DNA of 64,000 nucleotides, taken from the NCBI GenBank assembly GCA_963756875.1, contig CAVWPA010000001.1:128001-192000 (forward strand), given 5' to 3'. Origin of the DNA: an uncultured Verrucomicrobiae bacterium (lineage in GTDB: Bacteria > Verrucomicrobiota > Verrucomicrobiia > Chthoniobacterales > UBA10450). Shown here one piece after another: positions 12,596 to 39,591 of the stretch; position 1 is the stretch's first letter, and the number at the start of each line of letters is the position of its first letter. A program made the translations under genes and the position numbers. The notes under the pieces were generated by a model that was given only the letters and a program-made list of their open reading frames with translations, made no database searches and was not told where the DNA came from.

Positions 12596-13936
12596 GTGAA
12601 GACAAGTGACGGTCCACGGAGCGACGTAAATCTGTTGTCGACGTCGGCGCCCTTGCTTCCCCCTGGCATTACACAGCGAACCCTTGCCATCATCATGGGG
12701 GGCGGCGCGGGAACGCGGCTGTTTCCGTTGACTAAAGACCGCGCGAAGCCGGCGGTCCCGCTCGGTGGAAAGTATCGTATCGTCGATATCCCCATCAGCA
12801 ATTGTCTGAACTCCGGTTTGCGATCGATCTACGTGCTCACGCAGTTCAACAGCATGTCGCTGCATCGGCATATTCAGGCCAGCTACAAGTTCGATCATTT
12901 CTCCCGTAGCTTTATCGATCTTCTCGCGGCGCAACAAACTCCCGAGGGTTCGCAGTGGTACCAGGGAACCGCCGATGCTGTCCGGCAAAACATGCGCTAC
13001 TTTCTCGAGCGGCCGTTTGAGTATTACCTCATCCTGAGCGGCGATCAGCTTTATCGCATGGATTTTCGCGTGCTGCTGCATCAACACATTCAATCGGGAG
13101 CCGATATTACGCTGGCGACCAAGCCGATTGAGCGGCATCGGGTTTCCGAATTTGGCATTATGCAGAGCGGAGTGGACCGGCGCATTACCCGCTTTGTGGA
13201 AAAGCCGAAGGACGAAGCGGTGCTTGGCGAAATGAAAATGAGCGGCGAGTTGCTCGCCGCCGTCGGCCTGAACGAACAGGATGAATTATTCCAGGCTTCG
13301 ATGGGGATTTACATTTTCAATCGGGACGTTCTCGTTAAATGCCTGGACAATGAGCTGGTCGATTTTGGAAAGCACATCATCCCGCAGTCGATCGCCGACC
13401 GGCATGTGAGCGCATTTATCTTCAAGGGCTATTGGGAGGATATCGGCACGGTGCGCGCCTTTTATGAAGCAAACCTGGATCTGACGGATCTTGTCCCCGA
13501 GTACAGCTTCTTTGACACGGAGGCGCCGATTTACACGCACCCCCGCTTTTTACCCGGGAGCAAGGTCAACGGCGCGACGCTGCGCCAGGCGATTATCTCG
13601 GACGGGTGCATCATCTCGGATGCGCATTTGGAGAGAAGCGTGATCGGCATCCGCAGCATCATTCAAAGCGGTGCCACGATTCGCGACAGCATTATCATGG
13701 GAGCGGATTACTTCGAACAAAACCGGCACGAGCATTCGGACCTGCCGGCCATCGGGATTGGACGCAACTGCGTGATTGACCGCGCCATTATCGACAAGAA
13801 CGCGCGCATCGCAGACGGCGTAGTCATTACACCGGAGGGAAAATCAGCGAATCTGGACGCGGAAAATTACTTTATCCGCGACGGGATTGTGGTGGTCCCG
13901 AAGAATGCCGTGATCCCGGCGGGATTCTGGATCTGA
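12596..13936 (+). CDS. glgC: glucose-1-phosphate adenylyltransferase
   Basis: GGGAGTRLFPLTKDRAKPAVP, WYQGTADAV, LSGDQLYRMD, ASMGIY, YWEDIGT; start uncertain. Confidence 0.97.
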   Translation: MKTSDGPRSDVNLLSTSAPLLPPGITQRTLAIIMGGGAGTRLFPLTKDRAKPAVPLGGKYRIVDIPISNCLNSGLRSIYVLTQFNSMSLHRHIQASYKFDHFSRSFIDLLAAQQTPEGSQWYQGTADAVRQNMRYFLERPFEYYLILSGDQLYRMDFRVLLHQHIQSGADITLATKPIERHRVSEFGIMQSGVDRRITRFVEKPKDEAVLGEMKMSGELLAAVGLNEQDELFQASMGIYIFNRDVLVKCLDNELVDFGKHIIPQSIADRHVSAFIFKGYWEDIGTVRAFYEANLDLTDLVPEYSFFDTEAPIYTHPRFLPGSKVNGATLRQAIISDGCIISDAHLERSVIGIRSIIQSGATIRDSIIMGADYFEQNRHEHSDLPAIGIGRNCVIDRAIIDKNARIADGVVITPEGKSANLDAENYFIRDGIVVVPKNAVIPAGFWI

Positions 13937-15326: not shown

Positions 15327-15749
15327 ATGCGCCGGCGCTATTTGATCGTCGATGGACACAGCGTGATTTTCGCCTGGAGCGCCCTGCGCAAATTGCATGG
15401 AAGACGGACATCTTTGGGTCGCGAGGCGTTGATTAAACAGCTTCGTGATTACCAGGACCGCACCGGAACCAGGGTGGTGGTCGTTTTCGATGGCAAAGGG
15501 GAATGCATCAGCGAGACGTCGTTTCCCGGCGAGGTGCATGTCTTTTACTCTCGCCGCGGACAGTCGGCGGATGCCATCGTTGAGCGGCTCGCCAGCAAAT
15601 ATGCCGCGCGATTCGACCTCACGGTGGTCACGTCAGATTCGTTGGAGCGGGAAACAGTGCATGCATGCGGCGCGGCGTGCATTTCGCCCGAAGCATTGCG
15701 CGGCCTTATCGAGGAAGCGCGAGGTGCCTGTTCGGGAGACAGGCTATAA
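15327..15749 (+). CDS. NYN-domain (YacP/Rae1-like) ribonuclease
   Basis: YLIVDGHSV, VVVFDG, SADAIVERL, VVTSD. Confidence 0.85.
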   Translation: MRRRYLIVDGHSVIFAWSALRKLHGRRTSLGREALIKQLRDYQDRTGTRVVVVFDGKGECISETSFPGEVHVFYSRRGQSADAIVERLASKYAARFDLTVVTSDSLERETVHACGAACISPEALRGLIEEARGACSGDRL

Positions 15750-15753
15750 ACAC

Positions 15754-16203
15754 TCAGGCGGCGCCGACCAAAGCGTGATGCGGCTGGCCGCCCGAACTTC
15801 GAGCGGCGGTCCGATGCCGGCAGGTGGCGAGCACACGCGCCAGCACGCAATAAAGTTGTTCGATTGGCAGGTTCTTGCTCACGTAACCATTGGCTCCGGC
15901 TTGCAAGGCCGCATGCATTTGCTCCTCGTCGTAGCCGACGCCGGTGAAAACCACGATCGGGATATAGCCGTTGATCTCGCGGATGAAAGAAATGAGCGAA
16001 ATACCATCCACTTTTGGCATCTTGAGATCGACAATCACGACGTCGCAATCGTGGCGGGCGAGCCAGGCAGCCGTCTGGAAGCCGTCGGTGATGGAATGGC
16101 AGGTATGTCCGCGTTGCCGGAGGTAGGCGACCAGGAATTTGGCGATACCGGGGTCATCGTCGATGATAAGAAACTGAGAGAAATCGCGGGTTTGCGTTGT
16201 CAT
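15754..16203 (-). CDS. single-domain response regulator
   Basis: LIIDDD, IVDLKMPKVDG, VFTG, GANGYVSK. Confidence 0.9.
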   Translation of the reverse strand: MTTQTRDFSQFLIIDDDPGIAKFLVAYLRQRGHTCHSITDGFQTAAWLARHDCDVVIVDLKMPKVDGISLISFIREINGYIPIVVFTGVGYDEEQMHAALQAGANGYVSKNLPIEQLYCVLARVLATCRHRTAARSSGGQPHHALVGAA

Positions 16204-16228
16204 TGGCTATAATTTCCATAATCAATTA

Positions 16229-16302: not shown

Positions 16303-17316
16303 CTACGACTCCAGCTTTTCTTCAATGGCTTTGACCCGGGCGAACAGCTTTCCGAGCCGATGAATCCAGGCAATCTGCCGTTTTGCGTTGGCAAAGGGTA
16401 CGGCTGGAGAACCGAACCAGACGCCTCCACGGGTGTCCTTCGTGATTCCGCTTTGCGCTGCGATCATGGTCCCGTCACCGATCTCAATGTGACCTATGAC
16501 GCCCACCTGGCCGGCCATCATGACGCGCTCGCCGAGGCGGGTACTGCCTGATACTCCCGCTTGCGCCGCGATCACGGAATGTTTGCCGATCACAACGTTG
16601 TGCGCCACCTGCACCAGATTATCGATCTTCACCCCCTCCTGTATCCAGGTGCGGCCAAAGCGGGCGCGATCGACGGTCGTGTTGGCCCCGATTTCCACGT
16701 CGTTATCGATCTGCACGATTCCGACCTGTTGAATTTTCCGCTGGCGGCCATCGACGAATTCGAAGCCAAAACCATCCGCCCCGATCACCGCGCCGCTATG
16801 AATAATGACGCGGGCGCCGATACGTGTCCGTTCGCGAATCGCGACATGGGGATAGATGGTACATTCCGGGCCGATTACGGTTTCATGGCCCACATAGGTT
16901 TGCGCTCCAATCACCGTGTCATCCCCGATGCTCGCCCCGGCCTCGATTACCGCGTACGGTTGCACCGAGACGCGCGCGCCCAGTTTTGCGCTCGGATCCA
17001 CGATCGCACTCGGGTGAACTCCTGGCGGAAACACCACAGGTTTCGGGGCCAGTCGCAGAACGATTTGTTCGAATGCCTTGGATGGATTTGAAACGTGAAT
17101 TTGTGCGGCTGGGATCGTTTCGGAGAAATCAACCGGCACGAAAACCGCGGAAGCGCGGGTCTTTTGCACCAGGGAAGCGTATCTGGGATCGGCAAAAAAC
17201 GTGATTTCACCCGGTTCGGCTTCCGCGAGCGACGCCGCCCCGGTTATTTTCCCGGCGGGATCACCGTGCAACTCGCCACCGGTGATCTTCGCGATTTCCT
17301 GGAGAGTAAAAGTCAT
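16303..17316 (-). CDS. lpxD: UDP-3-O-(3-hydroxyacyl)glucosamine N-acyltransferase
   Basis: Hexapeptide repeats, IGADGFGF, EIGANTTVDRA, KIDNLVQVAHNV. Confidence 0.96.
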   Translation of the reverse strand: MTFTLQEIAKITGGELHGDPAGKITGAASLAEAEPGEITFFADPRYASLVQKTRASAVFVPVDFSETIPAAQIHVSNPSKAFEQIVLRLAPKPVVFPPGVHPSAIVDPSAKLGARVSVQPYAVIEAGASIGDDTVIGAQTYVGHETVIGPECTIYPHVAIRERTRIGARVIIHSGAVIGADGFGFEFVDGRQRKIQQVGIVQIDNDVEIGANTTVDRARFGRTWIQEGVKIDNLVQVAHNVVIGKHSVIAAQAGVSGSTRLGERVMMAGQVGVIGHIEIGDGTMIAAQSGITKDTRGGVWFGSPAVPFANAKRQIAWIHRLGKLFARVKAIEEKLES

Positions 17317-17459
17317 CAATTACTGTAGCGGTGCTTTACGAGCGTCGCTAAAATTTATGCCCGAAATAGTCCGACAGTCGTAGATCGCGAAAGAGTCTAG
17401 GAATTGAGCTCCGGATTCCAAGCTCCAACATCCTCTTTGGGATCCCCGGGCCTGGAATT

Positions 17460-19463
17460 CTACCGTTGCTCGGTCCCTGGCAGCAGCACACTGACCGACG
17501 TGCCTTGAGGGCCCGAATCGATGTCCACCCTCCCGTTGTGATCGAAGATCGTGCGCTTCACAATCGGCAATCCTAATCCCATCCCGCGCGGCTTGGTGGT
17601 GCAAAAAGGAGAAAATATTTTCTCCTTCAACTCCGGCGCGATTCCTTTGCCGTTGTCCCGCACAGTAATCACAACTCCGCCGGGCCCGTCGTTTTCACGG
17701 AGTGGTTTTACCGAAAGCGCGATGCGGCGTTTCTTTTGATGGGAAAGAGCCTCGGCCGCGTTGGCCACCAGGTGAGCAAACGCTTCGGCAAGGGCTTCTT
17801 CATCGCCAAGCACGTGTGGCAGGTTGCCAGGCAGCGACGTTTCCACTTCAATCCCGCCATTTACCCCGAAGCGCGACCGGGCGATTTCGAGGCCTTTCTT
17901 TACCGGTGCGCGCACGTCGATGGACTTCAGAACAATTTCGGGCGGATGCGCGAAGCTATTGATCTGGGTAATGATCCTGTCCAGGCGATCGACCTCTTTA
18001 ACTACGATTTTGTTGAATTCCTTGCGGAAGTCGGCGTCCTCGAAGCGTTCGGGAAGAAGTTGGGCAAAAGTTTTTATGGCAACCAGCGGGTTGCGGATCT
18101 CGTGCGACATGCTGGCAGCGAGATCGGTCCAGAAGGCGGCTCGATCGAGCAGCGCCTGTTTTTCGCGCGTCGTTACTTCGGTGGTCAGATCGTGCAGAAC
18201 AGCCACGGCCCCAAGGGGCGTGCGCTGGTCTGCCAGGCGGCGCACCTCAACCGACAGCGGGCGACGCGTGTTATTGTCGGTCCACTGCCGCGCCGGCAGA
18301 TTCGCTTTCGAATCGAGGGCGTCGCGCAGGAACGAGGCCAGACGGGTTCCCAGTGCTTCCACAGGTTTGTTCACGGCATTTGAGCTCGACACTCCGAGAA
18401 GTTGCTCAGCCGTCGGGTTAAACCAACGCACGACTCCATCCTCATCGGTGGCTACGATGCCTGACGGAATCGATTTGAGAAGAGTTTCAGCCAGCGTTTT
18501 TTGCAGCGTTACTTCCTCGTAAAGCAGGGAGTTCTCCAGCACGGTTGAGACCTGTTCAGCCAGCAGCATCAGGGCTTCAAGATCGCGGTAATCGAACGGC
18601 TGGCCGGCGATCCGATGTCCGAAAAATAACCAGCCGATGATACGACCGCGTGCGTAAAGGGGCACAATGACTTCCGCGCCAAAAGCGTCCAGGGCGCGCC
18701 GCATCACCTGACGCGTTCTCTGATCCGCGGCTTGCGCAAGATTTGCGCGTGCGATCAGGGAGGCGTTCGATTCGAACCAGCGGACCAGCGCATCGCGCTC
18801 GCCAAATTCCATTTCGTGCGTTTCGGGCAGGCAGCGCAACCCCGCCCGTAGCCGGTAATCTTCGCCCTGGCGCCCGCGTGAAAAAATACCCACTCGCGCT
18901 ACACCGGCCGCGTCCGCCACGCCTTCCACAATGCTCCCGAGCAAAGCGTCGATATTTTCAAACCGGCGAAAAACCCGGGGAAAACGCATCATCACCGCAG
19001 ACGACGCGCCATAACGCTCCGCAGCAACCTCCGGTCGATGCAGTGGCTGGGCCACAGGGACCATGGCGGATGTTTCCCGCAAGTCCCGATTTTCCTGCAA
19101 AGCTTTGAGATAATCGAAAGCCCGGCCGGCCAAAGCCTGGAACCGGCGGCGATCCAACTCGAGATCTTCCGCTGCGTAAATTCCAAATTGTTCCGCTTCA
19201 CGCAGCGGTTCCGAGCGCATGACGCCGAGCGCTATGATCAGTACGTCCTGCCATTCCTGTTGAACTTGTTCGATGAGATCGCGGCATTCTTTGGCGCGGA
19301 GATCTGCAATCAGCAGGCAGGCGCCGACTTGCTGAAGAACCGCGTCCAGACGATCCGGCTCGCTGACGTGCCGTACTTGTGCGGCCATACGCAGGTACGC
19401 CCTGACCCGCCGGCTCAGATCGGAATCCTGCGTATATAAGATGCAGACCGGCGGGGGAATCAT
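17460..19463 (-). CDS. cytoplasmic sensor histidine kinase (degenerate receiver, GAF, PAS, HisKA, HATPase)
   Basis: MSHEIRNPL H-box, DNGKGI, FSPFCTTK, GMGLGL; start set at MIPPP (19463). Confidence 0.88.
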   Translation of the reverse strand: MIPPPVCILYTQDSDLSRRVRAYLRMAAQVRHVSEPDRLDAVLQQVGACLLIADLRAKECRDLIEQVQQEWQDVLIIALGVMRSEPLREAEQFGIYAAEDLELDRRRFQALAGRAFDYLKALQENRDLRETSAMVPVAQPLHRPEVAAERYGASSAVMMRFPRVFRRFENIDALLGSIVEGVADAAGVARVGIFSRGRQGEDYRLRAGLRCLPETHEMEFGERDALVRWFESNASLIARANLAQAADQRTRQVMRRALDAFGAEVIVPLYARGRIIGWLFFGHRIAGQPFDYRDLEALMLLAEQVSTVLENSLLYEEVTLQKTLAETLLKSIPSGIVATDEDGVVRWFNPTAEQLLGVSSSNAVNKPVEALGTRLASFLRDALDSKANLPARQWTDNNTRRPLSVEVRRLADQRTPLGAVAVLHDLTTEVTTREKQALLDRAAFWTDLAASMSHEIRNPLVAIKTFAQLLPERFEDADFRKEFNKIVVKEVDRLDRIITQINSFAHPPEIVLKSIDVRAPVKKGLEIARSRFGVNGGIEVETSLPGNLPHVLGDEEALAEAFAHLVANAAEALSHQKKRRIALSVKPLRENDGPGGVVITVRDNGKGIAPELKEKIFSPFCTTKPRGMGLGLPIVKRTIFDHNGRVDIDSGPQGTSVSVLLPGTEQR

Positions 19464-19555
19464 GCCGCCGTCGCTCCTGGAATACTCCGGTTCGGAGACT
19501 TTTTGGTGCCTGGTGTCGGGAAAGTGGAATTTCCCATTAGATCGCGACGGAAGGA

Positions 19556-19756
19556 CCAAATCCCAAGCACCAAATCCCAAAGAAACTTCAAGCTCCAATC
19601 TCCAAAGGGCGGTCTCGCGCAGCAATCTAACCTACGGGTCTCACCAATGATTGGCCAAACACCCGCTAAAGACATCGCGCTGTTACCGGACGCGATACGC
19701 GATATTTGAGTATTGGTATTTGGAGATTCCCTGGAGCTTGGGCTTTGGGATTTGAG
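19556..19756. repeat. inverted heptamer-type arrays (CCAAATC/CCAAGCT ... TTGGGAT)
   Basis: accaaatcccaagcaccaaatcccaaa ... ggagcttgggctttgggatttga. Confidence 0.6.
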
Positions 19757-19773
19757 GCTTCCGGTCATCGGTT

Positions 19774-22305
19774 TCATGCCGCCGCCACCTCGCTGCCAAA
19801 TCTAACGAGGGGAAGCAGAATGTGAAAAGCTGTTCCTTTTTTAAGTTCGCTCTCGACCTCGATCTGTCCCTCGTGCTCCTGAATGATTCCATGCACTACC
19901 GACAGGCCCAGTCCGGTCCCGTAATCCTTTGTCGTGAAGAAAGGATCAAAGACATGCGGGATATCCTGCTTGCGAATTCCATCGCCCGTATCGCGGATCG
20001 TGATTCGCAAAACCTCTATTTCCGCCGCACCGCCGTTGCCTTGGGCCATTGAAGAGGCCCATCTCTTTTGCGTTTGAATCTGGGTATTAACGACCAGTTC
20101 GCCGCCGTTTTTCATCGCGTCCATGGCATTCAGAAAGAAATTGAGAAAGACTTGCTCGAGCTGGTCGGCATCGCCGCGGATTGTATCAACATTTGCCTCC
20201 CAAGAGCGAGTTAATTTGATTTCTTTTTGATATAACCGGTGGCCGACCAGCATGAGCGATTTTTCCAGCGCTTCATGTGCGTGCATCTTCTTAAGATGCG
20301 GTTTGGCCGGGCGAGCAAAGCGAAGCAGCTGGTTAACCAGCGAATCGATCCGGTCGATCTCGTGTCCGATCAGGTTCGAGAAAGTCTCACGGAAATCGGA
20401 ATCCTGATAACGCTCCGGTAACAACTGCGCGAATGTTTTGATCGAAACCAGCGGATTCTTGATTTCGTGGGCCATGCCGGCCGAGAGCGTGCCGAGGCTG
20501 GCCAGCCGATCGCTGCGGCGAATTTGCGATTCGAGTCGCTTGAGCGCCGTGATATCGGTCAGCACCATCAGCGCACCGAGCATCTCTCCATTTTGATCGT
20601 GAAAGATGGACGTGCTTGTGCGCGCGACCCTCGCCTCGTCCCCAGACTGCAGGGCCAGCTCGTTGTTCTCCCGGCCCTGCCCGGTGTTCAAAGTTTCGCG
20701 CAACGTATCGCGCAACGGGCCGGGGAGCGCTCCAAGGGAAATGCCGGGAATTTCGTCGGCCTTGAGTCCCGTGATTCGTCCGGCTTCGTTGTTGAATACG
20801 GTAATAAGCTCGTCGGCGCCCGTGGCGATGACGCCAGTGGTCAGATTTTCCAGCAAAGTCTCGTTGTAAATCTTTGCGTTCTGCACCTCGGTAAAGAGCT
20901 CGGCATTTTCAATTGCCACCGCGAGCTGGCCGCATAAAACCTGCAAGGCGCTTTGCTCGACGCTTCCGTAAATGCGTCCCGATTTCCGTGCGCCGAGCAG
21001 CATCACGCCGGCCAGATGATCGCGAGCGAAGATTCCCATGGCCACCGCGACCTGGAGCGAGTTCAACTGTCTCATTACACTCTGGAGTTGCTCGGTGGGC
21101 CGCACGCGGCGCAGCTCGTCCATGACGACCGGCTCGTGCTCGGATTCAAGTTGCACGATCGTTGCCTGGTCGCGTGTCAATTCCAGCCGTTGGCGGGAAC
21201 CGGGCTCGACCATCGGATATTGCTGCGAAAATCCCTGTCTGTCCGGCAAAAGGATGAAGATCCGCTCGGTGCCGACGGCTCCGGCTACCGTATTGGCGAA
21301 TTTGTCCAACAGGTCTCTCAGAGTTGTAACGGAACTTAATATTTTGGCGGCCTTGCTTACGGTCGCGCGAAAATCGAGCTGATGGGAACCGATGAAAAGC
21401 CGTTCTGCAAATCGTTGCGAAACACCGCGTGCCGGCGCCATTGCAAACGCGATAACGATGGCCGCTACGACGTGCGCAATGGCGTGGGAATTCCCCGCCG
21501 AAGAATGCAATGCGGTCGCAACGAGCCACCAGACCAGCGCATAAAGGCTGAGCAGGTAAACCGTGAGTAAGCTATAAGAGATAACGCGACGAAGAAGGAC
21601 GCCGACGTCCATGATTTTTCGGGTCGCGATGCCGTAAGCGACTACCAGACTAAACAAAACGATTCGAAACGGGCCTAGCCAAGTCAACCTCGACGTATCT
21701 ACGAAGAGGCTTAAAAGAAGGTACAAAGGAATGGAAAGCAGAAGGGCTACAACAGCACCCATGATAACGAGTGCCATTTCTGATTTCTCAGGGCCCGAAA
21801 CTCGACGTAGGTCGAGTGACAAGAGGATGATTAAAGCGACGATCGCGCCCGCGAAGCACATCGCGAACAAATGAAAGCCCGGCCCATAAGAAGGGACGGG
21901 GAAAGATGAGGCATGCCCGGCCTCGTGACTTAGATGAACCCCTTTTAGAAAAAACTTAGTCTGACAAAGGATCGCGATGGCGATGCTACCTAAGAACCAT
22001 GGAAGCGCTCGCCGCAGGAGGGCGCGCCACCTTTCTTTTCCCCTGCGAATGGAGAGACGAAGAAGATTAACAGTCGCCAGAATGAACGCGCCCACGGCGG
22101 AGGCCTGTCGAATGCAAAACTCGGCGACCCCTAGGTTGTTCGTCAGTAGCCCGTAATAAAGGTTTGCCAGCCATCCGGTAATGGCGAGCGAAAGAAATAA
22201 GAAACACTGGTTGGATTTTCGCTTCGGGTTGGCTTGGAAGACGACCAGTCCTAAGCCCACCTGGATGAGAATCGCTGCAAGGGCTGGTAAGCCAGCGCTA
22301 GTCAT
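19774..22305 (-). CDS. multi-TM sensor histidine kinase (membrane domain, GAF, PAS, HisKA, HATPase; PrsK-like layout)
   Basis: About 9 hydrophobic segments, then GAF and PAS, MAHEIKNPL, DTGDGI, FFTTK, GTGLGL; ATG at 22305 overlaps the upstream stop. Confidence 0.9.
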   Translation of the reverse strand: MTSAGLPALAAILIQVGLGLVVFQANPKRKSNQCFLFLSLAITGWLANLYYGLLTNNLGVAEFCIRQASAVGAFILATVNLLRLSIRRGKERWRALLRRALPWFLGSIAIAILCQTKFFLKGVHLSHEAGHASSFPVPSYGPGFHLFAMCFAGAIVALIILLSLDLRRVSGPEKSEMALVIMGAVVALLLSIPLYLLLSLFVDTSRLTWLGPFRIVLFSLVVAYGIATRKIMDVGVLLRRVISYSLLTVYLLSLYALVWWLVATALHSSAGNSHAIAHVVAAIVIAFAMAPARGVSQRFAERLFIGSHQLDFRATVSKAAKILSSVTTLRDLLDKFANTVAGAVGTERIFILLPDRQGFSQQYPMVEPGSRQRLELTRDQATIVQLESEHEPVVMDELRRVRPTEQLQSVMRQLNSLQVAVAMGIFARDHLAGVMLLGARKSGRIYGSVEQSALQVLCGQLAVAIENAELFTEVQNAKIYNETLLENLTTGVIATGADELITVFNNEAGRITGLKADEIPGISLGALPGPLRDTLRETLNTGQGRENNELALQSGDEARVARTSTSIFHDQNGEMLGALMVLTDITALKRLESQIRRSDRLASLGTLSAGMAHEIKNPLVSIKTFAQLLPERYQDSDFRETFSNLIGHEIDRIDSLVNQLLRFARPAKPHLKKMHAHEALEKSLMLVGHRLYQKEIKLTRSWEANVDTIRGDADQLEQVFLNFFLNAMDAMKNGGELVVNTQIQTQKRWASSMAQGNGGAAEIEVLRITIRDTGDGIRKQDIPHVFDPFFTTKDYGTGLGLSVVHGIIQEHEGQIEVESELKKGTAFHILLPLVRFGSEVAAA

Positions 22306-23545
22306 CGCCTGAAATACGGTTCGCAATCATCGTGCACGCACTGCCTCCGAGGCCTCTGACATTGATAAGGGTGCAGCCTACCTTCGTTTTGCGAGGGCGG
22401 GACGGAACGAAATCGAGGTCGCAATCGGCATCCCCGGTTTCGAAGTTTGCCGTTGGCGCGATGATCTGATCGCGAATGCTAAGGGCACACGTGGCCAGTT
22501 GCAATGGGCCTCCGGCAGCCAACGGGTTTCCAGTGACGCCTTTAATGGAGTTGACTGGAATTTCGTAGGCTCGCTCGCGAAAAACCTCCTTTATAAACCG
22601 CACTTCCGCCGCGTCCAAAGTTCGATCGCTTGGACCGTACGCAGAGATGTAGTCAACGTCTTCGGTGGAACGCACCGCGTTCGCCAGTGCAAGCCTCATT
22701 GAGTCGACCAAACCGGAACCGGGTCTCTCGGGATCGAGATCGCGCCGCTTCGCATAACCGCATATTTCGAGATAAGCGCGCGCTCCCCGAGCTTCTGCGT
22801 GCTCCAGATTTTCAAGGATGAAAATACATGCGCCCTCCGCGAGAACACCACATTGTCTCTCGGAATCAAAAGGTCGGCTGGCTTTCTCAGGTTCCCCATT
22901 CGTGGTCGAACAAAGTCCGCTTCCTATGAAACTCGCCATCGTTAACGGTGTTATAGGAGCGTCTGCCCCGCCGGCGACGGCAATCTCTGCTTCTCCCATG
23001 CGGATCATGGCAGCCGCGTCAGCCACCGCATCGAGACCGGATGGGCAAGCCGAAGAAACCGTCACCGCGTTGGCGCACGCGCCCAGTCGATCAGCGATAA
23101 GGTTTGCCGGCGCTTGAGGAATTGAAGCGGCCGATGCGCTCGCGGGCGCGCGGTTCGGCCCGCGGTCCCGCAGGGCGAAATAAACACTTTCGATCACATC
23201 TATCGCGCTGGTGCTTATTCCGATCACCACCGGAGTCGGGCTGGGTAATTCGAGATTGTCGGGATCCAGTCCCGCGTCTCGTAGCGCCATCATTGTTGCC
23301 GCGTAGGCAAACTGCGTGTGCCGCGCCATCCGCTTGGGTTTCAACTCCGGCTCAATGTAATCCAGCGGATCGAAGTTCTTTACCTCACCGGCAATGCGAC
23401 TCTTGAAACCAGTCGCATCGAACAACGTGATCGGCCCAATCCCGCTGCGACTGGCGAGGAGCGACTCCCAAAATGGCTCAATGCCAATCCCGTTCGGGGC
23501 TAGAATTCCCATGCCAGTGATAACAACGCGATTTCTCCTGGTCAT
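22298..23545 (-). CDS. FabF-fold beta-ketoacyl synthase-like protein with a non-canonical active site
   Basis: RVVITGMG, SSACPSG (Cys kept), ASRPFD, AEGA; ISAYGP and VTGNPL where FabF has NAHGT and TGHxL. Confidence 0.88.
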   Translation of the reverse strand: MTRRNRVVITGMGILAPNGIGIEPFWESLLASRSGIGPITLFDATGFKSRIAGEVKNFDPLDYIEPELKPKRMARHTQFAYAATMMALRDAGLDPDNLELPSPTPVVIGISTSAIDVIESVYFALRDRGPNRAPASASAASIPQAPANLIADRLGACANAVTVSSACPSGLDAVADAAAMIRMGEAEIAVAGGADAPITPLTMASFIGSGLCSTTNGEPEKASRPFDSERQCGVLAEGACIFILENLEHAEARGARAYLEICGYAKRRDLDPERPGSGLVDSMRLALANAVRSTEDVDYISAYGPSDRTLDAAEVRFIKEVFRERAYEIPVNSIKGVTGNPLAAGGPLQLATCALSIRDQIIAPTANFETGDADCDLDFVPSRPRKTKVGCTLINVRGLGGSACTMIANRISGDD

Positions 23546-23760
23546 ATTATTCTATTCCATTTCGAGAAATGGTGGTTCATAGTGCCGACAATGCGGGTGA
23601 CTCGATCTCTGCGGCAGAGAAATTTCGCTGCGGTGGTTATAAACCCAAAGTAATGGCCGGTCACACTGGACACGAGCGGATCACGACCGATTCTAAACGC
23701 TACATTAAATCCAGTCATTATATTTTTCTGCCACTTTCAGCCCGACTTATTCACCAAATT

Positions 23761-23782
23761 TGCAACTTATCCACAAGTTGCA
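23761..23782. promoter_or_regulatory. perfect 8-bp-arm palindrome in a divergent intergenic region (candidate operator/enhancer)
   Basis: TGCAACTT-ATCCAC-AAGTTGCA. Confidence 0.55.
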
Positions 23783-23794
23783 TCTTGCGCGCCA
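23779..23794 (-). promoter_or_regulatory. candidate sigma54 promoter for the ketosynthase-kinase operon
   Basis: Minus strand TGGCGCGCAAGATGCA = GG-N10-GC. Confidence 0.45.
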
Positions 23795-23868
23795 ACTGTT
23801 TTCATTTCAGCTTCTTTACTCCGTTTTCTATGCTTCCGCGGCCTTTTTTTTCATCTCGTCACCCTCCT

Positions 23869-23884
23869 CGGCACGCGCCTAGCT
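23869..23884 (+). promoter_or_regulatory. candidate sigma54 promoter for the REC-kinase gene
   Basis: CGGCACGCGCCTAGCT = GG-N10-GC, 20 bp upstream of the ATG. Confidence 0.45.
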
Positions 23885-23904
23885 GTTAACCCGCTCGGTC
23901 ATAC

Positions 23905-25059
23905 ATGACTGCCTCAACCGAATTGCCTCAAATTCTCGTTATTGACGATGAAATGGGACCGCGGGAAAGCCTGCGCATGCTGCTAAAACCGAACTACCAG
24001 GTTCACACGGCCGATTGCGTCGAGGCGGGTCTCAAACTGCTCAAGGAAAAATCTCCCGACACGATCGTCATGGATATCCGCATGCCTGGTATGACCGGAA
24101 TCGATGGCTTGCGAAAGATCCGCGAGATCGATCCGCATCTTTCCGTCATTATGCTCACCGGTTTTGGAGCGCTTGATACGGCAAAAGAGGCCCTGCGCCT
24201 GGGCGCCAACGATTATATCAGCAAACCGTTTGATGCGCGCGAAATGCAGGAAGTAATCGGCCGTAACGTGGAACGCACCCGCGTTCAACGAACCGCGGAT
24301 CATGCCGCTGAAGAAATCAAGGAGCTAAACAACCGCCTGCTCAAAGAACTGGCTCAAAAGGAAAGACTGGCGTCCCTCGGTCAAGCCTCGGCCGAATTCG
24401 TGCATGATCTCGGTAACCCGCTGACCATTGTCTGGGGTTATGTGCAGCTGCTGGCCAAGCGGCTGGAAAAATCCGAAAACAGCGATACTGCTACCCAAAA
24501 TGCGACCTCGGTTAAAGAGCTCAATATTATCGAACAGAACGTCCGTCTGTGCCGTGAGCTTCTTACAATGTGGCAAAGTTACGGCAGCGTCGAAGCGTCT
24601 CCGCCCAAGCCCCTCTCCGTGTCGGAAATCCTCCGGGAAATCATCAAAGGCATCAGCGCGGTGGCAACTCAGAGCGGCGTGGAACTAAATGCCACCATCT
24701 GCGAAGACCCGTGCATTCTGCTCGGCGACGCCGTGCAAGTGAGACGCGCGATTCAAAACGTGGTGATTAACGCGGTGCAAGCTTCCGCGGAGAAAAAAGG
24801 GTCGGTCAAAGTCACCTGCACAAAAAAAGATTTCTACGTCGATCTTCTCATCGAAGACAACGGACCCGGAATTGCTCCCGCGGAACTGAACAGAATTTTC
24901 GACCCTTATTTCACGACCAAGCAGGCGAAGAGCGGCACCGGTCTTGGACTGTATATCACGAAAAAAGTCGTCCAGGATCACAATGGTTCGATCAAGGTGG
25001 ACACCACGCCCGGTGTCGGCAGTATTTTCACAATCCGTTTGCCGCTCTCGAATAAGTAG
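23905..25059 (+). CDS. hybrid response regulator/histidine kinase (REC-HisKA-HATPase)
   Basis: LVIDDE, MDIRMPGMTG, FVHDLGNPL, DNGPGI, YFTTK, GTGLGL. Confidence 0.92.
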   Translation: MTASTELPQILVIDDEMGPRESLRMLLKPNYQVHTADCVEAGLKLLKEKSPDTIVMDIRMPGMTGIDGLRKIREIDPHLSVIMLTGFGALDTAKEALRLGANDYISKPFDAREMQEVIGRNVERTRVQRTADHAAEEIKELNNRLLKELAQKERLASLGQASAEFVHDLGNPLTIVWGYVQLLAKRLEKSENSDTATQNATSVKELNIIEQNVRLCRELLTMWQSYGSVEASPPKPLSVSEILREIIKGISAVATQSGVELNATICEDPCILLGDAVQVRRAIQNVVINAVQASAEKKGSVKVTCTKKDFYVDLLIEDNGPGIAPAELNRIFDPYFTTKQAKSGTGLGLYITKKVVQDHNGSIKVDTTPGVGSIFTIRLPLSNK

Positions 25060-25217: not shown

Positions 25218-27545
25218 GTGCGCTCTTCTCCAGATTTAAGAATTGCTACTGCGCGGGCGTTTCGTTTTCCTGAACGCGTGCCATCTGCTTATCAAGTCGC
25301 ACCGATTTTTTTGATCCGGATGGCGGGAGTTCCTTTCGAGCGAATTGAACACCTTGCCACTCGGGAGACGGCCGCGACCGCTCGCGAACTGGTCTCGAAG
25401 GTGAATAAATTGAACTCTGAAGACGAAGCACGCCTGCTTACAGCGCTTCAAATCGAACTGGAGAGATCGAGGAAATCGCTTTTTGAGGCCGCGCGCACGG
25501 TCCTTCCGCATTATTTGGTTTTTGCAGGCGAAGGCATGCAGGAGAGAGCAGCCTCTTTGATTGAAGGGCTAGTCACCCAGGACAATACGTTGCCCGCGCG
25601 CAACAGTCGCAATCGGGATCGTGAGCGCCACTTGGTTCTTTATCTTCAACGAATCGCAGCCAAGAACGACACTTTTGGTGAGTTCGGTCCCTCAGGCTGG
25701 GGCAGGATTGACGGCAATCGTACCGGCGTAAAGATCGACGTCGTACCTGGCGTTGCAGCGCGGGAGGTATTTCTCGAACGCTGGACCGCGCACGCGATCG
25801 CCGGCGTTATCAACGCCGATCCTGACATTCAGCCCGAACTTTGTCCGCGGCTGAATCCAAACGGCCGGATTGAAGGGCTAGCTTTCGTTTTTGCCGATTC
25901 CGGCGAAAAAGTGGTGCTGGATCAGGCCACGCTCGATCTCGTCAAACGATGCGATGGGCGAACGCCGGTTCATTCGTTAGGCGTACCGGTCGAGAACATT
26001 TACGCCCTTGTGGAAAAGAAATTCCTGCGCTGCGCGATGGAAGTTCCCGCTCTTGATCCACATGCGTTCGCGATCCTGTGTGATGATGTCAGGAAATGGC
26101 GTGCTGGGCCGGTGCGCGACAAGTGGTTGTCGATATTGCAGCCAATTTCGGAGCTACCGCAGGCGTTTGTCACCGCATCTAAAACGAAAGATCGACATGC
26201 AATTATCGATGAAGCGCGGGCCCGTCTTCTCTCGGCGGGGGCTGTCCACAAGCCGGGCGACCGGTTCTTGTACTCGGCAAGCAACCCGATCGGCGAGGAA
26301 TGTTTTCGTGAATGCGGTATCTCGATCGACGCAGCCTTGATCAATGAGGTCGCGACGGAGGCCGAACCCTGGATCGATTTCTGGCGCGATTCCTACGCCT
26401 TTGTCGCGTCGCGCGTCGCGGGCGGTTTGCGACAGATAATGGAAAAGGCCGGCGCCCAAAATGGACCGATTCCGTTGCCTGCATTTCTCAGTGCCTGCGA
26501 AGCGGCGAAACTCTCGCTTAGCGGTCCGGGACTTGTCGCCTTCGCGGTCATGGCCTTTCAAGAAGTAAAAGCCGCTTTCCGGCAGCGCCTGAAACCACAT
26601 GTCGATTGCGCCGAGTACGAGCTCACGGTCGAAGACTGCCATGTCGTGCGCAATAACTTCCAGTACCCGCTCTTCGACGAATACACATATCCGTCGGCCG
26701 ATCTGCAAATTGCAGCAAAATCTGCTGACGCGATTGCGCGCGGCGATTATCAATGGATTTTGGCCGAATTGCATCCGCCGGCGGCATTGCTGCATCATTG
26801 CATGTATTGGAGTTGTCCGGACAAACCGGCCCTCAACAGGGCGATGGCCAGCGTCGTATTTGGTCGCCCCAATTTTCACTTCGGGTTTTTTGCCGCCGAT
26901 TTTACTTCGCATACGGCAGTACGCTTGTTCGACGCGCTTCCCGAATTTTCCAACTTTGTCGCGCCGCAACGGGGAAATCCAAACTGGCGCACCGTTCCGC
27001 CATCTCAGGCCGAAGTTTATGTCGATCCCGAGAGCGGAGATGTTTGTCTGCGCAAGATCGACAATCAGGAATACCTCGGCTCATTTGCACGGGCCTGGAT
27101 CATTCCGCTCGGTTTCCACCCGTTCCAATTTGGAGTGGCTCCGCAGACGCCGCGGTTGCGGTGCGGTAAAGTGATCGTCCAACGGCGCGCCTGGGTAGTG
27201 ACCGTCGCTGAAATCCCGCCTGGAAATTATACCGGCGTATCGCGCAACCTTGTCCTGGCGATCGAGCGGTTGCGCGCGAAAAGAGATTTGCCGCGCTATA
27301 TTTACATTCGCCCGACCGAACAGGCGCTTCGCCGCAGCGGCGCGGAAGGTCGCGATAAAGACACCAAACCGGTGTTTATCGATCTGGAGAGCTATCTTTT
27401 TCTCGAAATCTTCTATCGCTGGCTTACGAAAGCCGGCGAGTTGGAGGTGACCGAAATGCTCCCGGACCCGGAGCATTTGCCATGGAAAGAGCCGGATGGC
27501 CGGCACACGTTTGAGCTGCGCACGCTCATCGTTCCGCGCGCATGA
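25218..27545 (+). CDS. small LanB-type protein (lantibiotic dehydratase aminoacylation domain only; PEARL-like)
   Basis: YLQRIAAKNDTFGEFGP, YPSADLQI, ILAELH, PRL..GKVIVQRRAW, KPVFIDLES, TEMLPD, ELR; 775 aa, no elimination domain. Confidence 0.82.
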   Translation: MRSSPDLRIATARAFRFPERVPSAYQVAPIFLIRMAGVPFERIEHLATRETAATARELVSKVNKLNSEDEARLLTALQIELERSRKSLFEAARTVLPHYLVFAGEGMQERAASLIEGLVTQDNTLPARNSRNRDRERHLVLYLQRIAAKNDTFGEFGPSGWGRIDGNRTGVKIDVVPGVAAREVFLERWTAHAIAGVINADPDIQPELCPRLNPNGRIEGLAFVFADSGEKVVLDQATLDLVKRCDGRTPVHSLGVPVENIYALVEKKFLRCAMEVPALDPHAFAILCDDVRKWRAGPVRDKWLSILQPISELPQAFVTASKTKDRHAIIDEARARLLSAGAVHKPGDRFLYSASNPIGEECFRECGISIDAALINEVATEAEPWIDFWRDSYAFVASRVAGGLRQIMEKAGAQNGPIPLPAFLSACEAAKLSLSGPGLVAFAVMAFQEVKAAFRQRLKPHVDCAEYELTVEDCHVVRNNFQYPLFDEYTYPSADLQIAAKSADAIARGDYQWILAELHPPAALLHHCMYWSCPDKPALNRAMASVVFGRPNFHFGFFAADFTSHTAVRLFDALPEFSNFVAPQRGNPNWRTVPPSQAEVYVDPESGDVCLRKIDNQEYLGSFARAWIIPLGFHPFQFGVAPQTPRLRCGKVIVQRRAWVVTVAEIPPGNYTGVSRNLVLAIERLRAKRDLPRYIYIRPTEQALRRSGAEGRDKDTKPVFIDLESYLFLEIFYRWLTKAGELEVTEMLPDPEHLPWKEPDGRHTFELRTLIVPRA

Positions 27546-27722
27546 AAATTGTCGCCATCGCAAATTCCGGGGAGCGCACGCGCCGCCGCGTGCTGGCGAT
27601 GGCGCCACCGCCATCGCGAACTTTTTCTTCTGAAGGATTTTCTCTTGATCGAACTGGGGATCGATGTCCCTCGGATGTATTCGTGGGCGTCACGACCAAA
27701 TGAAAATTGTCGCCATCGCAAA
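27542..27722. repeat. 23-bp direct repeat of the parA start flanking a REP-like insert
   Basis: ATGAAAATTGTCGCCATCGCAAA at 27542 and 27700, with GGGGAGCGCACGCGCCGCCGCGTGC between. Confidence 0.85.
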
Positions 27723-28482
27723 CCAGAAAGGGGGCGTGGGCAAGACCACCACGGCCGTGAACCTGAGTGTAGCACTCGCTGAAAAACGGTTGCGGATTCT
27801 GCTTGTTGACCTCGATCCTCAGGCGAACGCAACCAGTTCGCTCGGGATGCAGGAAAGCGAGGGCGAAAGCATTTACGCTTCGCTGCTGGGCGAAAATTCG
27901 ATTGCTGAAAAAGTGTTGCCCACGCGCATCGATCGCTTGTTTCTTGTGCCTGCCGATCTCGATCTGGCCGGCGCTGAAATCGAGATTGCGCGGATGAGCG
28001 ATCATCTCACGCGGTTGGCTGGGGCTTTATCGATCTTTCGTTCGGACGAAACCTTCGACTTCATCCTGATTGATTGTCCTCCTTCGCTGGGCATTTTGAT
28101 GACGAACGCTCTTGCCGCCGCGGATGAGATCCTGACACCAATCCAGTGCGAATATTTTGCACTGGAAGGTCTGGTAAAAATCGTGCGCGTGGTCGAGCAG
28201 GTGCGCGACTCCGGCGCGAACGATCACGTCGAGATCGGCGGCATCGTGATGACCATGTTCGATAGCCGGACAAATTTGAGCGCGCAGGTCGTCACGGAAG
28301 TTCGCCAGCATTTCGGTCAACGCGTTTATCAAACGGTTATTCCGCGCACGGTTCGCCTCAGCGAAGCGCCCAGCTTTGGCAAATCGATTCTCGAACATGA
28401 CCCGAGTGGGACCGGCGCCAACGCTTACCGCGCTCTGGCGCGCGAATTTATCAAGCGTCACGGCTTGTCAGCCAGCCGGTAG
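27700..28482 (+). CDS. parA: ParA/Soj-family ATPase (no adjacent parB)
   Basis: IANQKGGVGKTTT, DLDPQANAT, IDCPPSLG, QCEYFALEG, IPRTVRLSEAPSFG. Confidence 0.93.
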   Translation: MKIVAIANQKGGVGKTTTAVNLSVALAEKRLRILLVDLDPQANATSSLGMQESEGESIYASLLGENSIAEKVLPTRIDRLFLVPADLDLAGAEIEIARMSDHLTRLAGALSIFRSDETFDFILIDCPPSLGILMTNALAAADEILTPIQCEYFALEGLVKIVRVVEQVRDSGANDHVEIGGIVMTMFDSRTNLSAQVVTEVRQHFGQRVYQTVIPRTVRLSEAPSFGKSILEHDPSGTGANAYRALAREFIKRHGLSASR

Positions 28483-29954: not shown

Positions 29955-30200
29955 TCAAAGATGCTTCTTTATGAAGACCCGTCCCGAGGACGACTTCAGA
30001 TAAGCTTCCAAACGCTTTGCGCGGTCCACATTAGAGAATGCAATGTACGTTTTGATCTTCCACGGTTTCCACTTTGATGTGTGGCGGATTTCTCCACTGT
30101 TATGGCGAGCAAATCGTTTACGGAGATTACCTGTGCAGCCCGTATAAAATCGCGCGGGATCGATTTCGCTCTGCAAAATGTACGCGTATGTGAACTTCAT
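29955..30200 (-). CDS. small GIY-YIG nuclease-family protein
   Basis: YAYILQS...FYTGCT.NL.KR...HNSG...TSKWKPW...EAYLKS; 81 aa. Confidence 0.88.
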   Translation of the reverse strand: MKFTYAYILQSEIDPARFYTGCTGNLRKRFARHNSGEIRHTSKWKPWKIKTYIAFSNVDRAKRLEAYLKSSSGRVFIKKHL

Positions 30201-30607: not shown

Positions 30608-30695
30608 GGTCGGGTAGAGCATTTTCGTATTGCGATCTTGCTTTACGGTCATGAAAATTATCGCGATGCGCGCATTTGGAGCAATGAGCAAACGC

Positions 30696-39589: not shown

Positions 39590-39591
39590 TG

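What the first reader, a model, noticed from the sequence alone, without database searches (positions are those of the whole stretch)
19774..23545. Non-canonical ketosynthase coupled to a membrane sensor kinase: candidate signal-synthase/receptor pair
Seen: a stand-alone FabF-fold gene overlaps the start of a multi-TM GAF-PAS histidine kinase by 8 nt. It keeps the active-site Cys (SSACPSG), but the two histidine positions read ISAYGP and TGNPL. No ACP, fab or PKS genes are nearby; the neighbours are two more kinases and a response regulator. Known: FabF/FabB use a Cys-His-His triad for malonyl decarboxylation, and ketosynthase-fold enzymes make signalling molecules in Photorhabdus (PpyS photopyrones, DarB dialkylresorcinols). 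Inference: the enzyme does non-decarboxylative acyl transfer or condensation to make a lipophilic signal sensed by the adjacent kinase, i.e. an undescribed quorum-sensing-like system.
Basis: partly seen in the sequence, partly recalled or inferred. Interest (0 to 1): 0.78.

Follow-up and report, generated by a model that had tools for sequence, protein, structure and literature searches.

The report
Ketosynthase-like gene paired with membrane kinase
A fatty-acid-synthase-like enzyme that has lost two of its three catalytic residues is always encoded directly in front of a many-pass membrane sensor kinase, in bacteria from at least five phyla, which points to an undescribed lipid-based signalling module whose chemistry is still unknown.

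Summary
Gene 22298-23545(-) is a FabF-fold ketosynthase homologue. It keeps Cys167 and Lys335, but Tyr303 and Asn340 replace the two catalytic histidines. Its stop overlaps by 8 nt the start of a 7-8-TM GAF-PAS histidine kinase at 19774-22305(-).

The pairing is not chance. In 52 of 80 related genome loci a kinase gene with this 7TM domain starts -7 to +120 nt after the ketosynthase stop. None of the 23 loci with ordinary FabF or type II PKS ketosynthases has such a kinase gene. The linked loci come from Verrucomicrobiota, Lentisphaerota, Kiritimatiellota, Planctomycetota, Ratteibacteria and Thermodesulfobacteriota.

The kinase-linked ketosynthases form one clade. Cys is invariant in it, while the histidine positions vary (H/Y/N/W and H/Q/N). 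Members of the clade are often flanked by B12-radical-SAM genes or FadL-type outer-membrane lipid channels, which suggests a lipid ligand.

My best reading (confidence about 0.4) is that the enzyme forms an acyl-Cys intermediate and makes or loads a lipid ligand, without decarboxylation, that the kinase senses. A close rival is that the acyl-enzyme is itself the sensor. I found no paper describing this module. Its function is untested.

The parts
22298..23545 (-). Ketosynthase-like protein, 415 aa, FabF fold. Cys167 and Lys335 are kept. Tyr303 and Asn340 replace the two catalytic His, and Leu399 replaces the gating Phe.
   Evidence: At least 117 of 121 close homologues show the AYG motif, and 121 of 121 show K-x3-G-N.
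19774..22305 (-). Sensor histidine kinase HK1, 843 aa: HisKA_7TM (about 8 hydrophobic helices, no large periplasmic domain), GAF, PAS, HisKA, HATPase_c. Its start overlaps the KS stop by 8 nt.
   Evidence: AF2 model of residues 1-320 has pLDDT 85.9. Phospho-acceptor His613 and the N and G boxes are invariant in 39 orthologues.
17460..19625 (-). Second kinase HK2: cytoplasmic, GAF-PAS-HisKA-HATPase_c. The true start is probably internal, near 19463. It follows HK1 in most related loci.
23905..25059 (+). Hybrid REC-HisKA-HATPase_c protein, divergently transcribed from the KS. It is conserved next to the KS in Verrucomicrobiota and related phyla.
16303..17319 (-). lpxD (UDP-3-O-acylglucosamine N-acyltransferase), same strand, downstream of HK2. 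Present in 10 related Chthoniobacterales loci and absent from others, so it is probably not a core part.
15754..16203 (-). Stand-alone receiver (single-domain response regulator), last gene on this strand after lpxD.
   Evidence: The 255-aa + strand ORF 15445-16212 that overlaps it has no family match and is probably spurious.
25218..27545 (+). 775-aa protein with only a weak local match to the lantibiotic dehydratase N domain. Conserved after the REC-kinase hybrid in Chthoniobacterales loci only. Role unknown.
27664..28482 (+). ParA/MinD-type ATPase, the conserved last gene of the divergent arm in Chthoniobacterales loci.

Best explanation
The pair is one copy of a conserved two-gene module. 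It consists of a divergent FabF-type ketosynthase homologue co-translated with a polytopic 7TM-GAF-(PAS) histidine kinase.

Shown:
- the fold of the enzyme;
- the retained Cys and Lys and the loss of both histidines;
- the tight adjacency of the two genes across phyla;
- that the kinase-linked ketosynthases group as a single clade;
- lipid-related accessory genes in related loci.

Inferred:
- The enzyme takes an acyl group from an acyl-thioester (acyl-ACP or acyl-CoA) onto Cys167.
- In this lineage it passes the acyl group on without malonyl decarboxylation, because the histidines needed for that step are gone. This makes or loads a lipophilic ligand.
- The membrane-embedded 7TM domain of the kinase binds that ligand and sets the kinase's activity.
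- The kinase then feeds a branched phosphorelay: the second kinase, the REC-kinase hybrid and the single receiver here; sigma-54 NtrC-type regulators in other phyla.

Whether the ligand leaves the cell (quorum-sensing-like) or reports the cell's own lipid state is open.
For: Active site:
- Cys and Lys are kept, H303 is Tyr and H340 is Asn, against solved FabF. The score is below the fabF cutoff.

Linkage:
- A 7TM kinase gene starts -7 to +120 nt after the KS stop in 52 of 80 loci. Their site patterns are 36 CYKN, 5 CHKN, 2 CNKN, 7 CHKQ and 2 CHKH.
- Of the other 28 loci, 23 have no 7TM kinase anywhere in the locus (21 CHKH, 1 SHKH, 1 AGKH); one of these, L043, has only 205 nt downstream. Three end at the KS. 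One (L041) has a frame-broken KS followed by the kinase. One (L054) has the kinase 3.5 kb downstream, after an IS element.
- HisKA_7TM was confirmed by Pfam in the window, in 15 of the 16 distant kinase-linked loci tested and in L054.

Phylogeny:
- The 27 kinase-linked KS in the tree sit on one side of a branch: 1 change, SH-aLRT 93, and 0 of 500 label shuffles as low.
- In a 175-row FastTree they lie in a 97-supported clade of 76 rows. Cys is present in all 76. His340 is present in only 3.
- Across 44 clade members from at least 5 phyla, C167 and K335 are invariant.

Lipid context:
- B12-binding radical SAM genes of the lipid/hopanoid-methylase type lie next to the KS in L049, L062, L066, L065, L059, L060, L025 and L054.
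- FadL/TodX outer-membrane channels lie next to it in L023, L024, L025, L026 and L048.

Kinase:
- It has about 8 hydrophobic helices and no large periplasmic domain.
- Residues in the membrane region are conserved across phyla: W45 and Y224 are invariant, and R66, Y140, P212 and Y244 are at least 90% conserved.

From recall: known lipid or peptide autoinducer receptors (CqsS, LqsS, RpfC, AgrC) are also polytopic kinases encoded beside their synthase.
Against: - No product, acyl adduct or kinase response has been measured.
- The two histidine positions vary within the clade: Y, N, W, C or S at 303, and N, Q, C, S or I at 340. Dedicated synthases usually keep their catalytic residues, and Trp or Asn cannot act as a base for acyl transfer.
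- The window holds no ACP, acyl-activating enzyme, exporter or other biosynthetic gene.
- The radical SAM partner found in other phyla is absent from all 36 CYKN loci.
- The KS structure model was poor (pLDDT 62), so the pocket could not be examined.
- Context is known only for the 80 genome loci. The 49 further cluster representatives in the clade have no known neighbours.
Confidence: 0.4

Rival explanations
1. Covalent acyl sensor. The KS-like protein makes no product. Its conserved function is to be acylated reversibly on Cys167 by the cell's acyl-ACP (or by imported, activated fatty acids). The acylated and free forms act differently on the kinase's cytoplasmic GAF/PAS part. The module would then report acyl-chain supply or envelope lipid status.
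For: - Cys and Lys are invariant while the residues needed for the second half-reaction vary freely.
- The whole clade, including members that keep both histidines, lacks the FabF loop motif DAYHxT and the threonines of HGTxT. From recall, these serve malonyl-ACP handling and gating.
- Gene overlaps of 1-8 nt suggest production in fixed proportion.
- The FadL import channels in the relatives from Verrucomicrobiota and allied phyla fit sensing of incoming lipid.
- lpxD and glmS lie near the module here.
Against: - No binding evidence exists.
- The branch near L053 mostly keeps a full Cys-His-His triad with Phe (106 of 120 close homologues), and radical SAM partners are common outside this group. 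Both look like biosynthesis.
- lpxD is present in only 10 related loci.
Confidence: 0.27
2. Regulated output. The kinase senses a membrane or envelope cue on its own. The KS-like enzyme is its effector, remodelling lipids under kinase control, and does not supply the input.
For: Canonical FabF-type domains occur fused to signalling input domains:
- REC-KS: P0168.
- PilZ-KS: P0290, P0292, P0161, P0196, P0212, P0220, P0242.
- PocR-GGDEF-KS: P0286, P0176, P0187, P0225, P0236.
- PocR-KS: P0191, P0194, P0207, P0259.
So ketosynthases can be outputs of signalling.
Against: - The fused KS domains that entered the tree fall outside the kinase-linked clade, and most keep a canonical site.
- The window KS has no receiver or other regulatory domain.
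- An enzyme without its histidines is a poor lipid-synthesis effector.
- The KS gene precedes the kinase gene, whereas outputs usually follow the regulator.
Confidence: 0.1
3. Catalytically dead scaffold. The protein keeps the fold only and serves as a structural partner of the kinase, or in some unrelated role, without acyl chemistry.
For: Both histidines and the gating Phe are lost, and there is a 4-residue deletion in the loop next to the active site.
Against: Cys167 is invariant in all 44 aligned clade members and in all 76 rows of the wider clade. Lys335 is invariant in the 44 and is replaced (by Arg) in only 2 of the 76. Dead enzymes usually lose the nucleophile first.
Confidence: 0.08
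4. Ordinary fatty-acid elongase paralogue whose position beside a kinase has no functional meaning.
For: Public annotations call all homologues 3-oxoacyl-ACP synthase II.
Against: - The score is below the fabF cutoff, and the histidines are missing.
- The adjacency is kept in 52 loci across at least 5 phyla and is absent from all 23 loci with canonical KS.
- A separate canonical FabF exists in a Chthoniobacterales genome (L073, CHKHF, 36% identity).
Confidence: 0.03

Closest known systems
FabF / KAS II elongating ketosynthases (solved examples 4ls5, 1j3n, 1kas)
   Same: Same fold and domain pair over the full length (E 8.6e-79 to B. subtilis FabF). The active-site Cys, Lys335 and the D311/E314 pair are kept.
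   Different: Both catalytic histidines are replaced, the gating Phe is Leu, the DAYHxT loop is deleted and the HGTxT threonines are lost. The score is below the equivalog cutoff. There is no fab or ACP context. It is always paired with a 7TM kinase.
Autoinducer synthase / polytopic sensor kinase pairs: CqsA-CqsS, LqsA-LqsS, RpfF-RpfC, PhcB-PhcS (recalled, not tested here)
   Same: The logic is the same: an acyl-handling enzyme gene sits directly beside a many-pass membrane kinase without a large periplasmic domain, and the pair feeds sigma-54-type regulators in some loci.
   Different: The enzyme family is unrelated: a ketosynthase fold rather than a PLP transferase, crotonase or methyltransferase. 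The kinase sensor domain is HisKA_7TM, which has no known ligand. No signal molecule is known.
Non-elongating KS0 domains of trans-AT polyketide synthases (recalled)
   Same: Cys is kept and a catalytic His is lost, so the expected chemistry is acyl transfer without condensation.
   Different: KS0 domains are embedded in megasynthases between carrier proteins. This protein is free-standing with no carrier protein nearby.
FabH-type signal synthases PpyS, DarB, PqsD/PqsBC
   Same: They are thiolase-superfamily enzymes that build signalling lipids.
   Different: They belong to the KAS III branch. The window protein gave no KAS III Pfam domain and matches FabF-type models only.
PrsK/PrsR (XrtA/PEP-CTERM two-component system)
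   Same: The kinase of the Syntrophaceae relative L053 aligns over its full length, including the membrane part, to the PrsK model. Its downstream regulator resembles PrsR.
   Different: Both score below the curated cutoffs (176 vs 300 bits; 469 vs 502.6 bits). The window kinase did not list PrsK among its best 25 families. I know of no ketosynthase described in PrsK systems (recall).

Membership tests
FabF / KAS II elongating ketosynthase | Thiolase-fold ketoacyl-synt N and C domains | tested here: met
   PF00109 E 6.5e-44 and PF02801 E 2.2e-18. Full-length alignment to solved FabF.
FabF / KAS II elongating ketosynthase | Cys-His-His catalytic triad | tested here: not met
   Cys167 is kept. 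H303 is Tyr and H340 is Asn in the alignment to 4ls5 and 1j3n. The same is seen in all 36 CYKN loci.
FabF / KAS II elongating ketosynthase | Score at or above the curated NCBIfam fabF equivalog cutoff | tested here: not met
   340.2 bits against a cutoff of 493.75.
FabF / KAS II elongating ketosynthase | Gating elements: GFGG Phe and the DAYHxT loop (motif names recalled) | tested here: not met
   The sequence reads GLGG. The loop carries a 4-residue deletion relative to the canonical FabF of L036, L073 and L067.
FabF / KAS II elongating ketosynthase | Elongates acyl-ACP with malonyl-ACP; complements fabF/fabB | not testable with these tools
   Needs an enzyme assay or complementation.
Autoinducer synthase + sensor kinase pair (CqsA/CqsS type) | Synthase gene adjacent to a polytopic kinase that lacks a large periplasmic domain | tested here: met
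   8-nt overlap. About 8 hydrophobic helices. Adjacency in 52 loci.
Autoinducer synthase + sensor kinase pair (CqsA/CqsS type) | The enzyme makes a diffusible signal that activates the kinase | not testable with these tools
Autoinducer synthase + sensor kinase pair (CqsA/CqsS type) | Homology to a known synthase or receptor family | tested here: not met
   The enzyme matches only ketosynthase and thiolase models. The kinase's best NCBIfam matches are generic C-terminal ones (AtoS, ZraS), all below cutoff.
Non-elongating KS0 of trans-AT PKS | Cys kept and catalytic His lost, embedded between carrier-protein domains in a PKS | tested here: not met
   The active-site pattern is similar, but the protein is free-standing and no PP-binding domain was found nearby.
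Chain-length factor (KS-beta) of type II PKS | Cys replaced (usually by Gln); encoded next to a KS-alpha partner | tested here: not met
   Cys is kept. There is no second KS in the window. True KS/CLF pairs (L069-L071, L075-L078, L080) fall outside the clade.
FabH-type (KAS III) signal synthases | KAS III fold domains and a Cys-His-Asn triad in that scaffold | tested here: not met
   No KAS III Pfam family is among the matches.
PrsK (XrtA/PEP-CTERM kinase) | Score at or above the TIGR02916 cutoff | tested here: not met
   PrsK is not among the best 25 families for the window kinase. The relative L053 scores 176.5 bits against a cutoff of 300.

The most novel reading that the evidence does not exclude
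A two-component kinase whose sensory input is the covalent acylation state of a retired ketosynthase. The KS-like protein captures acyl chains on its conserved Cys, from acyl-ACP or from lipids imported through FadL. The acyl-enzyme, not a free small molecule, switches the 7TM-GAF kinase. This would be a direct protein read-out of acyl-chain supply in several bacterial phyla. It would also explain why Cys is invariant while the condensation residues decay.
Probability: 0.25. Interest if true: 0.88.

Novelty: new variant of a known kind. Interest (0 to 1): 0.72.

Why it matters
How bacteria outside the model Proteobacteria sense lipids, or talk to each other through them, is largely unknown. 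The HisKA_7TM sensor domain has no known ligand. Only two papers in the searched library mention it, and both only list it as a domain.

This module ties that domain to an acyl-handling enzyme in soil Verrucomicrobiota, Planctomycetota, Thermodesulfobacteriota and others. That gives a concrete, testable handle on the domain. It also offers a natural series: from members with a full Cys-His-His triad, to His-Gln or His-Asn, to Tyr-Asn. This series shows how a condensing enzyme is repurposed.

If the product is a secreted lipid, this is a new autoinducer class in abundant uncultured soil and sediment bacteria. If the acyl-enzyme is the sensor, it is a new kind of input to two-component signalling.

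All homologues are currently annotated as plain 3-oxoacyl-ACP synthase II, which is probably misleading.

Tried and rejected
- Complex prediction of KS with HK1 residues 1-480, using my own alignments, gave no verdict (score 0.00). It counts neither for nor against binding.
- The AlphaFold model of the KS from a 30-row alignment of close relatives was poor (pLDDT 62), so I did not use it or search folds with it.
- A Foldseek search with the good 7TM model (pLDDT 85.9) returned only eukaryotic GPCR bundles, with TM-scores of 0.29-0.53 (mostly 0.4-0.5) and rmsd 4-22 Å. I read that as generic seven-helix-bundle similarity, not homology.
- The search for KS-kinase fusion proteins found none among the 120 listed (162 proteins with E <= 0.001 out of 8000 candidates). 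P0281 and P0285, two long proteins 49-50% identical to the query, are truncated or read-through predictions joined to unrelated sequence.
- The first tree attempts, with the mixture model on 75 rows, did not finish. The tree I report uses 51 rows and LG+G4. I left out 25 CYKN loci as near-duplicates and 5 fragments (L025, L027, L040, L044, L072).
- The ESM Atlas gave only generic ketosynthase clusters.
- ORFs 23569-23889(+) and 19460-19777(-) have no family match and junk-like sequence, so I dismissed them as genes.
- The 775-aa LanB-N-like protein has no counterpart in the non-Chthoniobacterales loci.
- Rfam and the promoter/terminator scans showed nothing around the pair.
- Six literature searches found no description of a ketosynthase-kinase module. 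From those hits I saw search listings and abstract starts only, plus the HisKA_7TM passages of PMC5847659 and PMC6944256.
- The metagenome contigs and viral contigs collections and paper supplements were closed and stayed unchecked.

Full report
**What is in the window**

The minus strand between 15.7 and 23.5 kb carries, in order:
- a 415-aa ketosynthase (KS) homologue, 22298-23545;
- an 843-aa sensor kinase HK1, 19774-22305;
- a second kinase HK2, 17460-19625;
- lpxD, 16303-17319;
- a stand-alone receiver, 15754-16203.

Divergently on the plus strand lie a REC-HisKA-HATPase hybrid (23905-25059), a 775-aa protein with only a weak local LanB-N match (25218-27545) and a ParA-type ATPase (27664-28482).

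The HK1 start codon overlaps the KS stop by 8 nt, in the sequence ATGACTAG. Close homologues are named by their sources as Chthoniobacterales or Verrucomicrobia.

**The enzyme**

The KS homologue aligns over its full length with solved FabF structures (E 8.6e-79 to 4ls5).
- The nucleophile Cys167 (SSACPSG) and Lys335 are in place.
- The first catalytic His aligns with Tyr303 (ISAYGPS against INAHGTS).
- The second catalytic His aligns with Asn340 (TGNPL against TGHLL).
- The Phe of GFGG is Leu.
- The segment that reads DAYHxT in canonical FabF carries a 4-residue deletion.
- It scores 340 bits on the NCBIfam fabF equivalog, against a cutoff of 493.75.

The pattern is fixed in the family. Among the query and its 120 best homologues (72-92% identity), 121 of 121 show K-x3-G-N. 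At least 117 of 121 show AYG in register; the other 4 were out of register in my fixed-offset window.

No ACP, fab or PKS domain was found in the 45 larger ORFs scanned, nor in the 57 of 110 small ORFs between 13.9 and 31.7 kb.

**The kinase**

HK1 has HisKA_7TM, GAF, PAS, HisKA and HATPase_c domains. It has about eight hydrophobic helices and no large periplasmic loop.
- An AlphaFold model of residues 1-320 is confident (pLDDT 85.9). It shows a helical bundle with one short beta-hairpin.
- Its PDB neighbours are only generic seven-helix bundles with TM-scores mostly of 0.4-0.5.
- The phospho-acceptor His613 and the ATP-binding boxes are invariant in 39 orthologues.
- Within the membrane part, W45 and Y224 are invariant. 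R66, Y140, P212 and Y244 are at least 90% conserved across phyla.
- The two papers in the library that mention HisKA_7TM only list it as a sensor domain of unknown ligand.
- HK2 has no hydrophobic segment.

**Is the pairing conserved?**

A scan of one genome per species returned 80 loci (492 of 599 pattern matches encoded relatives, and the best 80 were kept). The outcome:

| Loci | Result |
|---|---|
| 52 | a gene with the 7TM domain starts -7 to +120 nt after the KS stop |
| 23 | no 7TM kinase anywhere in the locus (L043 has only 205 nt downstream) |
| 3 | contig ends at the KS (L025, L044, L072) |
| 1 | L041: KS frame broken, kinase follows |
| 1 | L054: kinase 3.5 kb downstream, after a methyltransferase, an IS element and a radical SAM gene |

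The 52 linked loci come from these groups:
- 36 Chthoniobacterales-type loci with the Cys-Tyr-Lys-Asn site;
- other Verrucomicrobiota, Lentisphaeraceae and Pontiellaceae (CHKN, CNKN);
- Ratteibacteria (CHKN);
- Planctomycetota (CHKH, CHKQ);
- Thermodesulfobacteriota and Syntrophaceae (CHKQ, CHKH).

Pfam confirmed HisKA_7TM in 15 of the 16 distant linked loci tested. The exception, L024, was confirmed by tblastn.

The 23 unlinked loci carry canonical KS: 21 CHKH, one SHKH and one AGKH. They include FabF beside RNase III, FabF beside an acyl-CoA dehydrogenase, and actinobacterial KS/CLF pairs.

**Phylogeny**

In a maximum-likelihood tree of 51 rows, the 27 kinase-linked KS are one side of a branch. 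That takes one change of label, has SH-aLRT 93, and 0 of 500 shuffles scored as low. L054 is their sister. This tree used a quick search with LG+G4. The mixture model did not finish, and I left out 25 near-duplicate CYKN rows and 5 fragments.

In a 175-row FastTree with 50%-identity cluster representatives, the kinase-linked KS fall in a 97-supported clade of 76 rows.
- All 76 rows keep Cys.
- Only 3 keep His at position 340. The rest have N, Q, C, S or I.
- Position 303 is mostly His, but Y, N, W, C or S appear in several lineages.
- The neighbours of the 49 representatives in this clade are unknown.

The branch near the Syntrophaceae member L053 mostly keeps the full triad: 106 of its 120 best homologues read CHKHF and 14 read CHKQF. 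Yet even these lack the DAYHxT loop and the threonines of HGTxT.

So the clade began as a divergent but probably competent condensing enzyme. It lost His340 and then, in the lineages related to Verrucomicrobiota, His303.

KS and HK1 pairwise distances correlate (r = 0.94 over 703 pairs from 38 loci; r = 0.67 for the 379 close pairs). Any co-inherited neighbours would show this.

**Accessory genes**

- B12-binding radical SAM genes sit next to the KS in L049, L062, L066, L065 (partial), L059, L060, L025 and L054. Their best sub-threshold matches are lipid, hopanoid and P-methyltransferase types. tblastn found none in the 36 CYKN loci.
- FadL/TodX outer-membrane channels lie divergently upstream in L023, L024, L025, L026 and L048.
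- Sigma-54 NtrC-type regulators follow the kinases in L023, L049, L053, L057, L059 and L063. REC-HD proteins follow in L049, L053, L057, L059 and L063.
- The L053 kinase aligns over its full length to the PrsK model, but below its cutoff.
- lpxD follows HK2 in only 10 related loci, so I do not count it as a core part.

**Reading**

The module is real and conserved. Its invariant feature is a thiol nucleophile in a ketosynthase fold, encoded with a membrane-embedded kinase, often beside lipid-modifying or lipid-importing genes.

I think the enzyme supplies the kinase's lipid input. It forms an acyl-Cys intermediate. In this lineage, which lacks both histidines, it transfers the acyl group without decarboxylative condensation to make or load the ligand (confidence 0.4).

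The variation at the histidine positions, the translational coupling and the FadL partners fit almost as well a model in which the acyl-enzyme itself is the signal (0.27). Lesser rivals are a regulated-output role (0.1), a dead scaffold (0.08) and an incidental FabF paralogue (0.03).

The regulated-output idea comes from REC-, PilZ- and PocR-GGDEF-fused ketosynthases in the databases. Those that entered the tree fall outside this clade.

**Novelty and limits**

Six full-text searches found no description of a ketosynthase-kinase module. All homologues carry generic FabF names.

The limits are these:
- There is no biochemical evidence.
- Gene context is known for 80 genome loci only.
- The metagenome and viral contig collections, cluster-member names and paper supplements were unavailable.
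- The complex prediction gave no verdict.
- The motif names and roles given for FabF gating elements, and for the comparison systems, are from recall.

Noticed in passing
window 29955-41900: A tRNA gene (30320-30392, minus strand) is followed by about 11 kb of lower G+C (0.52-0.54, against 0.55-0.59 elsewhere). This stretch holds a GIY-YIG ORF, a NERD nuclease-domain gene, a Tle1-like T6SS phospholipase-domain gene (34050-35294) and two collagen-repeat proteins, one with a BclA C-terminal domain (38804-39589, 39807-40565). It looks like an island inserted at a tRNA.
   Followed up: partly
database proteins P0168, P0290, P0292, P0161, P0196, P0212, P0220, P0242, P0286, P0176, P0187, P0225, P0236, P0191, P0194, P0207, P0259: FabF-type ketosynthase domains occur fused to signalling domains: receiver (REC-KS), PilZ (PilZ-KS), PocR-GGDEF-KS and PocR-KS. 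Most have a canonical Cys-His-His site; P0212 and P0220 do not. This suggests ketosynthases controlled directly by phosphorylation or c-di-GMP. One literature search found no paper on this. Those that entered the tree lie outside the kinase-linked clade.
   Followed up: partly
window 25218-28482: A 775-aa protein with only a weak local match to the lantibiotic dehydratase N domain (residues 634-704) is followed by a ParA-type ATPase. Both are conserved after the REC-kinase hybrid in Chthoniobacterales loci and have no counterpart in the other phyla. Function unknown.
   Followed up: partly
window 15327-16212: The 255-aa plus-strand ORF 15445-16212 is probably spurious. The real genes here are a stand-alone receiver on the minus strand (15754-16203) and a YacP-like NYN-domain gene on the plus strand (15327-15749).
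   Followed up: yes
L054 11271-14664: In the sister locus, the KS is separated from its 7TM kinase by a SAM methyltransferase, an IS element (transposase and integrase-core ORFs at 11724-12889), a B12-radical SAM gene and a small ORF. This looks like a larger biosynthetic version of the module that was later interrupted.
   Followed up: partly
L041 10001-11239: The KS homologue in this Verrucomicrobiae genome is spread over three reading frames. It is either a decaying copy or carries assembly frameshifts. The 7TM kinase still follows it.
   Followed up: no
window 5524-10490: Two tandem type II/IV secretion ATPase genes with MshEN domains (6905-8869, 8787-10490) are followed by a T2SS F-type platform gene (5524-6816).
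   Followed up: no
window 48038-56936: A 1812-aa protein with DUF11-type repeats (48038-53476) lies beside an ECF sigma factor gene (53517-54176) and a 918-aa Ser/Thr protein kinase with TPR repeats (54180-56936).
   Followed up: no
L053 13426-14973, L057 5522-7069, L059 13423-14973, L063 13427-14974: In the Thermodesulfobacteriota versions, the 7TM kinase is followed by an unusual protein that joins a sigma-54-type AAA+ domain to a HisKA domain, with no receiver or DNA-binding domain. After it come an NtrC-type regulator and a REC-HD protein.
   Followed up: no
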